In this document: positions 1 to 25,516 of the stretch, piece by piece | Layout of the letters: the number at the start of each line of letters is the position of its first letter | How positions within the stretch are numbered: the stretch's first letter is position 1 | IMG/VR virus record: IMGVR_UViG_3300010885_011343 | Coordinates: 1 to 64,000 of that record | Source of the DNA: a virus | Strand: one strand, 5' to 3' | DNA length: 64,000 nucleotides | The notes under the pieces: model-generated | What the model was told of the DNA's origin: nothing | Seen by the model: only the letters and a program-made list of their open reading frames with translations | Database searches by the model: none | Translations under genes and position numbers: made by a program

Positions 1-221
1 ATTCTATCAATCATCCTAATGCTGGTGCTTGATCTATAAAAATCAAGAGTAGATTTGATGGCGGCAGTGTTGCCAATATTAGAAATATAGATAGAATTGA
101 TTTTATAAGATTTATTACTGCTAGCCGGATTAGAAACAAGCACCGTAGCGGCTGTACCTATGGTAGTACTGGTTGTTTTTCCGTAAACTGAAGTAATTGC
201 GACTAAATTTGGTGCTGCCAT
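1..221 (-). CDS. Small phage structural protein, partial (runs off the left edge)
   Basis: Not in the ORF track. ATG at 221 reads MAAPNLVAITSVYGKTTSTTIGTAATVLVSNPASSNKSYKINSIYISN... and stays open to the edge; TAAATA box upstream at 254-249. Confidence 0.7.
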   Translation of the reverse strand, partial: MAAPNLVAITSVYGKTTSTTIGTAATVLVSNPASSNKSYKINSIYISNIGNTAAIKSTLDFYRSSTSIRMIDR

Positions 222-23558: not shown

Positions 23559-24404
23559 ATGGATCAAAAGCCAGCCAACCCCCTTGCCAAACACTTTAGA
23601 CAGCCAGCAATTTATTTGAAGTTGCCCAGCGGCGGTCGTTATTGGCCCGAGGATGCTATTCGTTTGCCAATGAACGGTGAGATTGCCATTTATCCAATGA
23701 CCACCAAAGATGAGATCACCCTACGCACCCCGGATGCATTAATCAACGGGTCCGGTGTAATTAGTGTAATTGAAAGTTGCTGTCCAGAAATACTTGATGC
23801 TTGGCGTATGCCCAGTATCGATCTAGATGCTACCATTATTGCAATTCGAATTGCCAGTTACGGCACCGAAATGTCTTTCAACAGCAAATGCCCTGCCTGC
23901 GAACAGATCAATGATTATGCAATCGATTTAACTCAGGTTCTCGGCCGTATACGTATGCCCGATTATGATACCCTTGTCGAAGCAGATAGTTTAAAGATTA
24001 AATTGTATCCGCAACCGTATTTTTCTTTTAACAGTAACAACCAAGCAGAATTTGAAGAACAACAACTACTACGTGCTATAGAAGATGTTACCTTAGACCC
24101 CGACGTTCGGTCTGCCAAAATTAAAGAGCACTCGCAAAAAATTATTACATTAGGGATTAGTACAATAGCAAACAGTACTGAATACATTGAAGTTGACGGT
24201 ACTAAAGTCTACGATAAAGACCATCTAAGAGAATTTTATAGCAACGTTGGCAGCTCTGTGGTTAAGCAAATACAAAAACGTTTAGTAGCAATTAACGAAG
24301 AAGGTGCAGTCAAGCCAATGCACGTAAACTGTACCGAATGTCAAAATCCATTTGACATACAAATTACTTTTGATTACGCAAGTTTTTTCGACGTCGGCTT
24401 TTGA
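23559..24404 (+). CDS. gp26: Baseplate hub / tail assembly chaperone, T4 gp26-like
   Basis: YLKLPSGG, PMTTKDE, IRIASYG and two CxxC pairs (CPAC, CTEC); ends ASFFDVGF; RBS GGAG. Confidence 0.8.
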   Translation: MDQKPANPLAKHFRQPAIYLKLPSGGRYWPEDAIRLPMNGEIAIYPMTTKDEITLRTPDALINGSGVISVIESCCPEILDAWRMPSIDLDATIIAIRIASYGTEMSFNSKCPACEQINDYAIDLTQVLGRIRMPDYDTLVEADSLKIKLYPQPYFSFNSNNQAEFEEQQLLRAIEDVTLDPDVRSAKIKEHSQKIITLGISTIANSTEYIEVDGTKVYDKDHLREFYSNVGSSVVKQIQKRLVAINEEGAVKPMHVNCTECQNPFDIQITFDYASFFDVGF

Positions 24405-24619
24405 CTCTGAGTAATGAAGCAGTAGTCCGTATGATTGAGGGCTACGAGAAAGAGTCAAAAGCCTACAAAGAAGAAGCACTTAGACTAAGCTGGTGGATGC
24501 GTGGTGGTTTATCCTATGATGACGCAATGATGCTCAGTCAAACTGAAAGAGATCTAATAGGAAAAATCATTAAGGAAAATATTGAAACTACTAAAAAGTC
24601 TCAAATGCCATTTTTCTGA
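24401..24619 (+). CDS. gp51-like chaperone domain, probably translated as a -1 frameshift extension of gp26
   Basis: 72 aa with weak TTG start and no evident RBS; frame is open back to T-TTT-TTC at 24383-24389. Confidence 0.65.
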   Translation: MTLSNEAVVRMIEGYEKESKAYKEEALRLSWWMRGGLSYDDAMMLSQTERDLIGKIIKENIETTKKSQMPFF

Positions 24620-24638
24620 TTTAATTCTAATCCTTTTA

Positions 24639-24693
24639 AGACTAACTGCGTTAGTCTATCAATTTCGCTATCGCTCATTGATCTTTTTCTTTT
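24639..24693 (+). terminator. Tandem hairpins plus T-tract, likely terminator for the chaperone operon
   Basis: AGACTAAC-TGC-GTTAGTCT (24639-24657), then ATCAAT...ATTGAT (24658-24682), followed by CTTTTTCTTTT. Confidence 0.5.
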
Positions 24694-24704
24694 AATATTA
24701 TTTT

Positions 24705-25087
24705 TTAAGTATCATCTAGATTAATCGGTCATAATTCACCGTAAGCACGGTGAAAATGAAAGGGCATCATCTGAGTAGCACTGTCATTCTATTCTAATGA
24801 GATTGTGTTTGTACACACGGAGGCGGTTGACCGGTACCCCCTACTCAAGCTTCACATATCAACGGAACCCTAGTAATCCGGAATAGACCCAAATCCTACG
24901 AGCAGGGGTTGCTTTTTCTCATTGCCCCAACCATTCAAAACCTTAAGTTAGTTTTTGCCTTTGGCGCCCAAGACTCTGACGGCACAGCACAACCTGTACA
25001 ACCTCAATGGGGCCAGTCCACGACTGGCACGTTGCCTGTATACTAAACGAATTAAAACGAGATAGACTTGGTGTCTGTGAGGGGGGG
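24705..25087 (-). ncRNA. Putative large structured ncRNA downstream of the GIY-YIG gene (family not recognised)
   Basis: No ORF of 60 aa or more; at least 7 stems, a long-range helix and a crossing 6-bp pairing. Two stems close with G-U wobbles only on the minus strand. Boundaries approximate. Confidence 0.6.
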
Positions 25088-25516
25088 TTAGATTTTATTT
25101 AAAATATGGGATCCGTGTACACGAACACTAATCTGTCCGTTGTAGTAGTCCGACGATTCCAGAACTTTACGTTGGAATTGCTCTCGGGCCTCGATGTAGG
25201 AACACACCGCTTTGGAATTACAGTAATATAAAATTTCTCTTTTAAAGATGTCTTGTCCTAATAACTCTACATCTTTGTTTAATTCTATATTGGAACCATA
25301 GTACTCTTGCCAGTCAGAATCAACTTTACTGCGTATCTTTTTCTTTTTCTTGATACCGTTCTTTTGTTTGACTACTTTGTATGTTGTCTTAGAGAATTTG
25401 GATAACTTTTTGCCAATATACTTACGTCCGTTGCTAGTATTTGTAATTTCGTACACAAATCCTATACAATCTTCTGGAAGTTGTTCAACGGGCATATTTT
25501 GATAGGTCCAAGTCAT
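25088..25516 (-). CDS. Stand-alone GIY-YIG (Seg-like) nuclease domain protein
   Basis: GFVYEITN...KYIGKK, YYGS, conserved Glu (YIEARE) and YYN; 142 aa with a Lys-rich insertion and no C-terminal DNA-binding domain. Confidence 0.8.
   Translation of the reverse strand: MTWTYQNMPVEQLPEDCIGFVYEITNTSNGRKYIGKKLSKFSKTTYKVVKQKNGIKKKKKIRSKVDSDWQEYYGSNIELNKDVELLGQDIFKREILYYCNSKAVCSYIEAREQFQRKVLESSDYYNGQISVRVHGSHILNKI

What the first reader, a model, noticed from the sequence alone, without database searches (positions are those of the whole stretch)
24620..25516. Putative large pseudoknotted ncRNA directly downstream of a minimal GIY-YIG nuclease: candidate RNA-protein system
Seen: the only large ORF-free gap in this dense window (24620-25087) begins right at the GIY-YIG stop. 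It is visibly more GC-rich than other spacers and packed with stems: GCCAGTC/GACTGGC (25012-25028), GGGG/CCCC (24905-24928), a stem at 24871-24898, TGTGT/ACACA (24804-24817), TCATT/AATGA (24784-24800) and TTCACCGT/ACGGTGAA (24735-24754). A long-range helix TGAGTAG/CTACTCA (24772-78 with 24841-47) closes a multi-way junction, and CGGTCA/TGACCG (24726-31 with 24828-33) crosses it, giving a pseudoknot. GGGGG/CCUCC and GAUUUGG/CCGGAUU pair through G-U only on the minus strand, the nuclease strand. AGAUGAU occurs twice (24772-66, 24717-11). The nuclease is 142 aa with a Lys-rich insertion (KTTYKVVKQKNGIKKKKKIRSK) and no C-terminal domain. Known: GIY-YIG homing endonucleases such as I-TevI and Seg proteins use appended DNA-binding domains, and IscB/TnpB sit beside structured guide RNAs. 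Inference: the RNA may scaffold or target this nuclease, or may be an independent ribozyme, packaging RNA or replication RNA. I recognise no group I/II intron, RNase P or tmRNA core.
Basis: partly seen in the sequence, partly recalled or inferred. Interest (0 to 1): 0.9.

Follow-up and report, generated by a model that had tools for sequence, protein, structure and literature searches.

The report
Twin-box structured RNA of T4-like phage
The gene-free gap behind a small nuclease gene of this uncultured T4-like phage encodes a real, knotted non-coding RNA of about 400 bases that carries the same fast-changing 7-letter word twice; it is an uncatalogued relative of the orphan Polynucleobacter-1 RNA, its job is unknown, and the nuclease looks more like a neighbour than a partner.

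Summary
The 468-nt gap (24620-25087) is the only large ORF-free stretch inside the window. It holds a real structured RNA gene on the minus strand, about 25037 to 24636.

- **Conservation:** more than 110 homologues in viral contigs share an invariant 60-nt core. About 80 base pairs are 93-100% canonical, and 58 pairs show compensatory changes. G-U outnumbers A-C 811 to 68.
most local stems hold. The 7-bp long-range helix and the TCATT/AATGA hairpin do not. The proposed pseudoknot is unproven. A different pseudoknot, between the Hf loop and 24788-24794, covaries strongly.
- **Twin boxes:** two 7-nt boxes (24766-24772 and 24711-24717) are identical in 110 of 110 loci across at least 10 haplotypes. 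No partner was found.
- **Rfam:** the window matches no family. Sister RNAs carry Polynucleobacter-1 (RF01718) as their 5' domain and share the 3' twin-box domain.
- **Nuclease link:** in 2010 that motif was already reported downstream of this same gene family (PSSM2_218 homologues). The RNA occurs without the GIY-YIG gene, and the gene occurs widely without the RNA. A guide role is therefore unsupported.

Function is unknown. This scan has reported the same RNA family before on other DNA.

The parts
24636..25037 (-). Whole structured RNA, type-A twin-box RNA, about 400 nt. It runs from the 5' AGGCA motif to the tail after the last hairpin. Neither end has been mapped experimentally.
   Evidence: 76-87% nucleotide identity in relatives with no conserved ORF. 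nhmmer full-length matches reach E=1e-122. Covariation; corrected coordinates.
25088..25516 (-). 142-aa stand-alone SegE-type GIY-YIG gene directly upstream of the RNA. It has no C-terminal DNA-binding domain and is a homologue of PSSM2_218, which is annotated 'NAD synthetase'.
   Evidence: Pfam PF19835 E=4.9e-32. BLASTP against PSSM2_218 gives 38% identity, E=1e-19. 341 cultured phage records carry a homologue.
25012..25028 (-). Hairpin P1 (GCCAGUC/GACUGGC). Its sequence varies between relatives but the pairing is conserved.
   Evidence: Alignments. Its columns are among the highest-scoring covarying pairs, columns 26-46.
24963..25036 (-). 5' subdomain closed by helix Ha (GGC 25034-25036 with GCC 24963-24965). 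It contains P1, helix Hb (CCCA 25008-25011 with UGGG 24967-24970) and hairpin Hc (GUACAG 24994-24999 with CUGUGC 24982-24987).
   Evidence: Ha is 96% canonical, GC:69 and CG:15. Hb has 4 of 4 pairs with double changes. Hc in the window comes and direct reading of the sequence.
24939..24953 (-). Hairpin Hd (AACU/GGUU).
   Evidence: 97.6% canonical; 4 of 4 pairs with double changes.
24905..24928 (-). Hairpin He (GGGG/CCCC plus an inner stem).
   Evidence: 97.7% canonical; 76 double-change cells.
24871..24898 (-). Hairpin Hf (UAG-GAUUUGG / CCGGAUU-CUA). Its loop, 24881-24888, forms pseudoknot PK1.
   Evidence: 98.5% canonical. 299 G-U cells, which are possible only on the minus strand.
24788..24794 (-). 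3' strand of pseudoknot PK1 (GAAUAGA). It pairs with the Hf loop UCUAUUC at 24881-24887.
   Evidence: 9-column helix; 7 pairs with double changes; 81 double-change cells; for example UA:45, CG:34, UG:10.
24798..24847 (-). Three-way junction closed by helix Hg (UGAG 24844-24847 with CUCA 24798-24801). It holds hairpin Hh (GGGGGU 24836-24841 with GCCUCC 24819-24824, and the loop UACCGGUCAACC at 24825-24835, constant in every type-A copy) and hairpin Hi (24805-24816).
   Evidence: Hg closing pair is UA:46 and AU:45. Hh shows GC:67 and AU:26. Hi has 77 double-change cells. The core is invariant in the 15 loci that were found through the protein and not through the core pattern.
24766..24772 (-). 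Box 1 (AGAUGAU). It sits in the apical loop of a hairpin whose arms are roughly 24776-24791 and 24754-24765.
   Evidence: Identical to box 2 in 110 of 110 loci. Flank duplexes average -7.0 kcal/mol for self pairs and -5.4 for non-self pairs, p=8e-11.
24735..24754 (-). Hairpin Hj (UUCACCGU/ACGGUGAA), between the two boxes.
   Evidence: 98.2% canonical; 4 pairs with double changes.
24727..24731 (-). It remains unproven.
   Evidence: 96-100% canonical, but with one-sided changes only. UGACU of unit A (24782-24786) fits nearly as well. Type-B loops GGACA and GGAUGA break the pairing without compensation.
24711..24717 (-). Box 2 (AGAUGAU). It is single-stranded and is followed by a variable A-rich linker.
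   Evidence: No flanking hairpin signal.
24658..24682 (-). Hairpin Hk (AUCAAU-GA-GC / GC-GA-A-AUUGAU), containing a tandem G-A motif.
   Evidence: 8 of 8 pairs with double changes; 157 double-change cells.
24640..24656 (-). Terminal hairpin Ht (GACUAA/UUAGUC), followed by a run of only 2 U in the window (3-4 in relatives). It is the probable 3' end or a weak terminator at the convergent junction with the plus-strand baseplate genes.
   Evidence: 5 of 6 pairs with double changes; 127 double-change cells. It does not meet the strict terminator scan.

Best explanation
The gap encodes a non-coding RNA gene of about 400 nt on the minus strand. It is the last element of the leftward gp55-gp47-gp46-dCMP deaminase-GIY-YIG gene block.

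Shown:
- The RNA folds into a 5' domain, then a pseudoknotted three-way junction with a 12-nt loop that is constant in every type-A copy, then a 3' 'twin-box' module.
- It is a type-A member of a wider phage RNA family. In other members the 5' domain is the Rfam motif Polynucleobacter-1.
- The same 7-nt word is displayed twice, about 55 nt apart. Box 1 sits in a hairpin loop and box 2 in a single-stranded stretch. The word differs between phages but the two copies never differ from each other.

Inferred:
- The RNA is made by read-through from the upstream gene, or from a weak promoter in that gene's 3' end. It ends at the last hairpin.
- It acts in trans as a folded scaffold that presents two identical words to one sequence-reading partner. 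That partner could be a nucleic acid that differs between host or phage lineages, or two copies of one protein. The RNA would then act as a bivalent adaptor or decoy.
- The GIY-YIG gene is a syntenic neighbour and not an obligate partner.
For: - **Real RNA:** about 350 nt are conserved at 76-87% identity with no conserved ORF. 93 non-redundant homologues were aligned.
- **Structure:** 14 helices with about 80 pairs are 93-100% canonical. 58 pairs have changes on both sides. There are 759 double-change cells against 67-119 when partners are slid by 1-3 columns. An APC-corrected G-test over all column pairs recovers the same helices and the pseudoknot without any folding model.
- **Strand:** 811 G-U cells against 68 A-C cells.
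- **Twin boxes:** identical in 110 of 110 loci with at least 10 haplotypes, and also in type-B sisters. There are at least 24-26 concerted changes on trees. The boxes are not paired internally. The arms around box 1 covary.
- **Family link:** type-B loci score 71-118 bits on RF01718 just after the GIY-YIG stop codon. Their 3' halves match the type-A profile at E=1e-9 to 1e-29.
- **Independence from GIY-YIG:**. In L107 the upstream ORF is on the opposite strand, so the RNA must be able to start on its own.
Against: - No expression data.
- The last hairpin lacks a proper U-tract.
- No partner for the boxes was found in the RNA, in about 1 Mb of flanks, or in the 93.9-kb fragment. 'Read by a trans partner' therefore rests only on elimination.
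- Adjacency to the GIY-YIG gene holds in 75 of 102 loci. Where it fails, another small nuclease (PDDEXK_15) directly precedes the RNA in 4 loci and lies nearby in a fifth. This is also what a functional nuclease-RNA pair with non-orthologous replacement would look like.
- The homologue set was fetched with an exact 19-mer of the core. Invariance of that core in the large set is therefore by construction. It is independent only in the 15 loci.
Confidence: 0.55

Rival explanations
1. The RNA is the functional partner of the small nuclease encoded just upstream, as a scaffold, specificity subunit or guide. The 7-nt words set the target.
For: - A nuclease gene directly precedes the RNA on the same strand in 75 of 102 loci.
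- In GIY-less loci a nuclease of an unrelated fold, PDDEXK_15 of about 172 aa, directly precedes the RNA in 4 loci (L101, L133, L147, L160) and lies nearby in a fifth, L107. Those contigs hold no GIY-YIG homologue, though they are fragments.
- The 142-aa protein lacks any DNA-binding domain.
- The words are variable and single-stranded.
Against: - Unrelated genes are inserted between the nuclease and the RNA in 18 loci.
- L111 and L084 have non-nuclease genes upstream.
- About 9 GIY-YIG loci have no detectable RNA within 3 kb.
- The GIY-YIG family occurs in 341 cultured phage records. No RNA is detectable by blastn in the whole collection, nor by RF01718 in three complete genomes.
- 7 nt is too short for a guide. 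The phage's own word is neither depleted nor enriched nearby.
- No protein column follows the boxes, but only 3-4 well-supported independent pairs were available, so the test is underpowered.
Confidence: 0.15
2. It is a cis-acting 3' untranslated element of the operon mRNA. It would act as a stabiliser against 3' exonucleases, a processing site or a terminator at the convergent gene junction, and not as a trans-acting RNA.
For: - In most loci it starts within about 10 nt of the upstream stop codon, with no room for its own promoter.
- It is on the same strand as the upstream gene in nearly all loci.
- It ends in hairpins at a convergent junction.
Against: - 400 nt, two pseudoknot-level interactions, an invariant 60-nt core and twin words are far more than stabilisation needs.
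- It is kept behind many unrelated upstream genes.
- In L107 it follows a divergent ORF.
Confidence: 0.1
3. The two identical words are jump sites for a polymerase that copies the 49-64-nt unit between them repeatedly. From my own knowledge, this resembles the R repeats of retroviral RNA or the repeat motifs of DRT2 template RNAs.
For: - Identity without sequence conservation, in parallel register, sharply limited to 7 nt.
- A stable hairpin lies inside the unit.
Against: - No reverse transcriptase gene in the 93.9-kb fragment, which is only 27% complete.
- Unit length is not fixed, at 49-64 nt. Concatenated units are not open reading frames more often than shuffles: 10 of 82 against about 20%.
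- No locus with three boxes was seen.
Confidence: 0.05
4. The conservation acts on DNA rather than RNA. The element would be a replication origin, a recombination site or a homing-endonuclease target, with the boxes as protein-binding direct repeats.
For: - Homing-type nuclease genes cluster at its 5' side: a SegE+NUMOD3 gene in L129 and L192, and a phrog_314 gene in L177.
- A 60-nt invariant core would be a good endonuclease target.
Against: - Dozens of compensatory pairs, and a 12-fold excess of G-U over A-C on one strand, are signatures of a transcribed single strand and not of duplex DNA.
Confidence: 0.05

Closest known systems
Polynucleobacter-1 RNA motif (Rfam RF01718; Weinberg et al. 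2010, Genome Biol 11:R31, PMC2864571, Additional file 1)
   Same: - It lies directly downstream of the same gene family. The paper says most examples follow GOS11034 genes with possible homology to PSSM2_218. The window's GIY-YIG protein is 38% identical to PSSM2_218, E=1e-19.
- RNAs that carry RF01718 in L002, L006, L013, L025, L026, L029, L031 and L060 continue, in those checked, into a 3' domain homologous to the window's. This includes the hairpin loop, the twin boxes and the last two hairpins.
- Function is unknown in both. Neither is found in any cultured phage.
   Different: - The window's RNA does not match the RF01718 model even at E<=10.
- Its 5' domain (25037-24905) has a different set of helices.
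- The catalogued motif is 141 positions long and does not include the 3' twin-box domain, which is the part conserved across both types.
Guide RNAs of IscB/TnpB (OMEGA) and CRISPR nucleases
   Same: A structured RNA encoded next to a nuclease gene on the same strand, with a short variable segment.
   Different: - There is no RuvC or HNH effector. The neighbour is a 142-aa GIY-YIG domain alone.
- The variable words are 7 nt long and duplicated, not a terminal guide of about 16-20 nt.
- Co-occurrence is not obligate.
- No matching targets were found.
- The description of OMEGA systems is from my own knowledge and PMC13565253, seen as title and abstract only.
Large orphan structured RNAs of phages and bacteria (GOLLD, ROOL, HEARO, OLE class; from my own knowledge of the Breaker and Weinberg surveys)
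   Same: Several hundred nucleotides long, with many covarying helices and pseudoknots, found in phage genomes, and no known function when discovered.
   Different: No Rfam model of these families matches. None is described with a duplicated word that stays identical while it changes.
Free-standing homing endonuclease genes next to conserved RNA genes (for example T4 segB in the tRNA cluster; from my own knowledge)
   Same: Nuclease genes of several families sit beside a highly conserved structured-RNA gene: GIY-YIG, SegE+NUMOD3, phrog_314 and PDDEXK_15.
   Different: The 142-aa GIY-YIG gene is 70-85% identical across more than 590 contigs and is widespread in cultured T4-like phages. It behaves as a conserved phage gene, not as a sporadic selfish one.

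Membership tests
Polynucleobacter-1 RNA (Rfam RF01718) | Scores at or above the family's gathering threshold (37 bits) with the Rfam covariance model | tested here: not met
   No match at the gathering threshold. No match at E<=10 on 1401 nt, on 416 nt or on the whole 93.9-kb record. The same model scores 71-118 bits in sister loci.
Polynucleobacter-1 RNA (Rfam RF01718) | Lies downstream of a GOS11034 / PSSM2_218-family gene (Weinberg 2010, Additional file 1) | tested here: met
   Text of the paper. PSSM2_218 was located and aligned to the window's GIY-YIG protein at 38% identity, E=1e-19.
Extended Polynucleobacter-1 / twin-box phage RNA (uncatalogued; named in earlier notes of this scan) | Homologous 3' domain: the GGGGG-loop-CCUCC hairpin, two repeat units each ending in the same 7-nt word, an internal hairpin, and two terminal hairpins | tested here: met
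   The nhmmer profile of type-A RNAs matches the 3' halves of 39 type-B loci at E=1e-6 to 1e-29. The architecture was read directly.
Extended Polynucleobacter-1 / twin-box phage RNA (uncatalogued; named in earlier notes of this scan) | The two 7-nt boxes are identical within every RNA but variable between RNAs | tested here: met
   110 of 110 loci, at least 10 haplotypes. In the window both boxes are AGAUGAU, at 24766-24772 and 24711-24717.
RNA-guided nuclease system (OMEGA / CRISPR type) | Obligate co-occurrence of the nuclease gene and the RNA | tested here: not met
   RNA without the GIY-YIG gene in 9 of 102 loci, and separated from it in 18 of 102. The GIY-YIG gene occurs without the RNA in cultured phages and in about 9 metagenomic loci.
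RNA-guided nuclease system (OMEGA / CRISPR type) | A variable guide segment long enough to specify a target, with matching targets | tested here: not met
   The only hypervariable conserved-position segments are the 7-nt boxes. There is no enrichment or avoidance of a phage's own word or its complement in about 1 Mb of flanks or in the 93.9-kb record.
Group I intron carrying a GIY-YIG homing endonuclease (I-TevI type) | Interrupts a host gene, with structured RNA on both sides of the endonuclease ORF, and matches the intron model | tested here: not met
   Only 28 nt separate the GIY-YIG start codon from the dCMP deaminase stop codon, and no split exons are present. No Intron_gpI match.
GIY-YIG nuclease superfamily, SegE type (the neighbouring protein) | Full-length match to the GIY-YIG catalytic domain model | tested here: met
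   PF19835 E=4.9e-32, residues 3-129 against profile positions 1-123 of 123. The GIY and YIG motifs are readable in the sequence.
GIY-YIG nuclease superfamily, SegE type (the neighbouring protein) | Nuclease activity | not testable with these tools
   No close solved structure by sequence; the best PDB match has E=0.057.

The most novel reading that the evidence does not exclude
The two identical 7-nt words are programmable seeds. Through them the folded RNA base-pairs with a lineage-specific nucleic-acid partner and recruits the small stand-alone nuclease encoded just upstream. That nuclease is GIY-YIG in most phages and PDDEXK_15 in others. This would be an RNA-directed nuclease system unrelated to CRISPR or OMEGA.
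Probability: 0.07. Interest if true: 0.95.

Novelty: new variant of a known kind. Interest (0 to 1): 0.55.

Why it matters
Large RNAs with this many conserved helices and pseudoknots are rare. Those that have been solved turned out to be ribozymes, riboswitches or core machines.

This one is widespread in uncultured T4-like phages. It extends an orphan Rfam motif that has stayed unexplained since 2010, and shows that motif to be only one interchangeable 5' domain of an RNA of 400 nt or more.

The pattern of its two 7-nt words is unusual. They always match each other, and they changed at least 24 times on the tree. This predicts an unknown reader and gives a clean experimental handle: mutate one box, or both.

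If not, the RNA is still a well-defined new target for structural and functional work on phage non-coding RNAs.

Tried and rejected
- **Rfam:** searched at the gathering threshold and at E<=10 on three stretch sizes, plus RF01718 on the whole record. Nothing matched the window.
- **tRNA/tmRNA scan:** none.
- **Decayed gene:** all six frames are full of stop codons, and no ORF is conserved in relatives.
- **Single-sequence folding:** not significant.
- **blastn against cultured phages:** no match with the type-A RNA or a type-B RNA.
- **17-mer scan of 185,579 species genomes:** 90 hits, of which 88 are chance matches. The 2 real hits are T4-like phage contigs inside one MAG.
- **Partner for the boxes:**
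  - No internal complement.
  - No word enrichment or avoidance specific to a phage's own box.
  - No twin complement in the phage's own record.
  - The 'hits' in the Hf loop for GAUAAU-type boxes do not follow the box in other haplotypes.
- **Pairing between the middles of the two repeat units:** self pairs are no better than non-self pairs.
- **Template-jump idea:** no endless ORF in concatenated units and no fixed unit length. No reverse transcriptase gene in the fragment.
- **GIY-YIG residues tracking the boxes:** the raw association disappears with phylogenetically independent pairs, and the test is underpowered.
- **Coordinate error:** coordinates printed were 1 too high because of my own offset error. 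They are corrected.
- **PDDEXK_15 in the window's own record:** none found, but the record is only 27% complete and the control search was silent, so this is uninformative.
Full report
**The observation.** The window is a fragment of a T4-like myophage. Its genes include gp55, gp47, gp46, dCMP deaminase, baseplate hub and portal, and the whole record is 93.9 kb. Positions 24620-25087 are the only internal stretch over 150 nt without an ORF of at least 50 aa. All six frames there are full of stop codons. The gap begins at the stop codon of a 142-aa ORF that matches the SegE-type GIY-YIG domain end to end (PF19835, E=4.9e-32). G+C is only slightly raised: 0.427 for the gap and 0.461 for its core, against 0.407 for the window. 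Folding the single sequence is not better than shuffles on either strand (z -1.4 and -0.9). On its own, then, the sequence does not prove an RNA.

**Homologues settle it.** The GIY-YIG protein has more than 590 relatives in viral contigs at 70-85% identity.
- In 15 of the first 80 loci, the DNA after the gene matches about 350 nt of the window's gap (24628-24978) at 76-87% nucleotide identity, always in the same orientation. No ORF is conserved across it.
- A MAFFT alignment of these shows a 60-nt invariant core and many hairpins whose two arms change together.
- An exact 19-mer from the core then retrieved at least 119 further viral contigs.
- After removing near-duplicates I aligned 93 sequences.

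**Structure and strand.** I applied an APC-corrected G-test to all column pairs, with no folding model. Its top scores are stacked antiparallel pairs. A scan for conserved canonical stacks gives the same helices. The model has 14 helices and about 80 pairs, which are 93-100% canonical. 58 pairs show changes on both sides. There are 759 double-change cells, against 67-119 when the 3' partners are slid by 1-3 columns. G-U cells number 811 and A-C cells 68. The transcript is therefore the minus strand, the strand of the GIY-YIG gene.

In window coordinates (searches printed values 1 too high), the RNA runs from about 25037 to about 24636. Its parts, 5' to 3', are:
- helix Ha (25034-36 with 24963-65), closing hairpin P1 (25012-28), Hb and Hc;
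- hairpins Hd (24939-53), He (24905-28) and Hf (24871-98);
- a three-way junction closed by Hg (24844-47 with 24798-801), holding Hh (24819-41, with a 12-nt loop that is constant in every type-A copy) and Hi (24805-16);
- box 1;
- hairpin Hj (24735-54);
- box 2;
- an A-rich linker;
- Hk (24658-82);
- Ht (24640-56).

The loop of Hf pairs with 24788-94. This is a pseudoknot with 7 covarying pairs.

- Five local hairpins are right.
- The 7-bp 'long-range helix' is not. Only GAGU/ACUC is constant and its outer pairs are 26-70% canonical. The same UGAG pairs with CUCA at 24798-801, where the closing pair is UA in 46 sequences and AU in 45.
- The TCATT/AATGA hairpin is replaced by the pseudoknot above.
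- The proposed CGGTCA/TGACCG pseudoknot stays canonical but never covaries. It has a rival UGAC. In sister RNAs the loop reads GGACA or GGAUGA while UGAC is unchanged. It is unproven.

**The twin boxes.**
- In the G-test, the columns of the two copies covary by identity: A with A and G with G.
- The two 7-mers are identical in 110 of 110 loci, while at least 10 different words occur. The rule also holds in the divergent sister RNAs.
- On a tree built without these columns, the word changes at least 26 times. On the GIY-YIG tree it changes at least 24 times. No half-changed intermediate was seen.
- Identity stops sharply at 7 nt.
- The flanks of box 1 form a hairpin whose arms co-vary: self duplexes average -7.0 kcal/mol and non-self -5.4, p=8e-11. 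Box 2 has no such hairpin.
- I found no complement inside the RNA.
- I found no enrichment or avoidance of a phage's own word in about 1 Mb of flanks, and no twin complement in the 93.9-kb record.

**Relation to known RNAs.** No Rfam family matches the window, even at E<=10 on 416 nt. Earlier notes of this scan pointed to Polynucleobacter-1, and I tested that lead.
- RF01718 does not match the window's record.
- It does match 8 sister loci at 71-118 bits, directly after the GIY-YIG stop codon.
- The 3' halves of such sister loci match my type-A profile and show the same loop, boxes and terminal hairpins.

The catalogued 141-position motif is therefore one of at least two alternative 5' domains of a larger RNA. 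The window carries the other, uncatalogued one. Weinberg et al. 2010 wrote that most Polynucleobacter-1 RNAs lie downstream of GOS11034 genes, possibly homologous to PSSM2_218, and that no purified phage had the motif. PSSM2_218 is indeed a homologue of the window's protein, at 38% identity and E=1e-19. The gene-RNA adjacency is thus an old observation. Neither RNA type is detectable by blastn in 50,697 cultured phage records.

**Is the nuclease a partner?** I examined 102 RNA loci with enough upstream sequence.
- 75 have the GIY-YIG gene directly upstream on the same strand.
- 18 have one extra gene in between. These extra genes come from at least 5 unrelated families, mostly with no Pfam or PHROG match.
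- 9 have no GIY-YIG gene within reach. In 5 of these a PDDEXK_15 nuclease gene lies upstream, directly so in 4. Two have a full-length SegE+NUMOD3 gene about 700 nt upstream. One has a phosphorylase and one an unknown gene.

In the other direction, about 9 GIY-YIG loci lack a detectable RNA within 3 kb. The protein family occurs in 341 cultured phage records: cyanophages and phages of Methylophilales, Acidovorax, Sinorhizobium and others. No RNA-sized gap follows the gene in the three I looked at, and RF01718 matches none of them. No protein column follows the boxes once phylogeny is allowed for, but only 3-4 well-supported independent pairs exist. I read the gene as a syntenic neighbour at the end of the gp46 block. 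The recurrence of small nucleases of two different folds in that slot is the one fact that keeps a functional link possible.

**Mechanism.**
- Shown: a conserved, pseudoknotted, minus-strand RNA with two identical exposed words.
- Inferred: it is released from read-through transcripts, or starts from a weak promoter-like site at 25121-25092. In L107 it follows a divergent ORF and so must be able to start on its own.
- Inferred: it ends at Ht, which has only a short U run and fails a strict terminator scan.
- Inferred: it works in trans by offering the same word twice to one reader.

Selection for sameness rather than for any particular sequence points to a base-pairing reader, or to a process such as template jumping. 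I tested the second idea and found no support: no endless ORF, no fixed unit length, and no reverse transcriptase gene in the fragment.

**Limits.** There are no expression data. The large homologue set was seeded with an exact core 19-mer. All contigs are metagenomic fragments. The host is unknown. The only two hits among species genomes are phage contigs binned with a Haliscomenobacter MAG.

**Verdict.** This is a real RNA. It is a new variant of an orphan family that this scan has already reported many times on other DNA. The guide hypothesis is not supported and the function remains open.

Noticed in passing
L239:460-876 and L251:4010-4417 (contigs NZ_JBBAKG010000003.1 and NZ_JBBAKG010000001.1): The only true copies of the RNA among 185,579 species genomes lie on two contigs (148 kb and 183 kb) of one MAG labelled Haliscomenobacter sp. 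EUL_031. Both contigs carry T4-like phage genes next to it (GIY-YIG and baseplate hub on both, gp46 on L251). They are either phage contigs binned with the MAG or a hint at the host.
   Followed up: partly
Loci L087, L088, L096, L120, L146, L162, L166, L177, L185, L194, L196, between the GIY-YIG stop codon and the RNA start: The junction between the GIY-YIG gene and the RNA is an insertion hot spot. It holds single genes of 243-356 aa from at least 5 mutually unrelated families. Ten have no Pfam match, the six of those searched have no PHROG match, and one (L177) resembles a homing endonuclease (phrog_314).
   Followed up: partly
L101:335-853, L133:11831-12352, L147:2293-2805, L160:9825-10343, L107:9422-9925: In RNA loci without the GIY-YIG gene, a gene of about 172 aa lies upstream of the RNA, directly so in four of the five. 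It is PDDEXK_15 (PF24608), which matches phrog_244 'RusA-like resolvase' in the one tested (L101). The contigs hold no GIY-YIG homologue, but they are only 5-13% complete.
   Followed up: partly
window 25088-25516 and 341 cultured phage records (for example PSSM2_218 at NC_006883 176711-177148): This GIY-YIG family is annotated 'NAD synthetase' in many GenBank and RefSeq phage records and in PHROG 447. The sequence is a GIY-YIG nuclease domain (PF19835), so the annotation looks wrong.
   Followed up: partly
L124, L113, L177, L117, at the position of window hairpin Hi (24805-24816): Some relatives carry insertions of about 30-95 nt inside the Hi hairpin. This hairpin is therefore a tolerated expansion site of the RNA.
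   Followed up: no
window 24383-24619: The 72-aa ORF after the baseplate hub gene starts with TTG and overlaps the hub gene's stop codon. Another first-stage note of this scan proposes a -1 frameshift fusion here. I did not examine it.
   Followed up: no
L023, L027, L028, L046, L047, L057, L062, L066, L070, just after the GIY-YIG gene: In these loci a 350-400-aa ORF starts exactly at the end of the GIY-YIG gene, overlapping its stop codon, and no RNA is detectable within 3 kb. The ORF is conserved among them at 65-97% nucleotide identity. It was not characterised.
   Followed up: no
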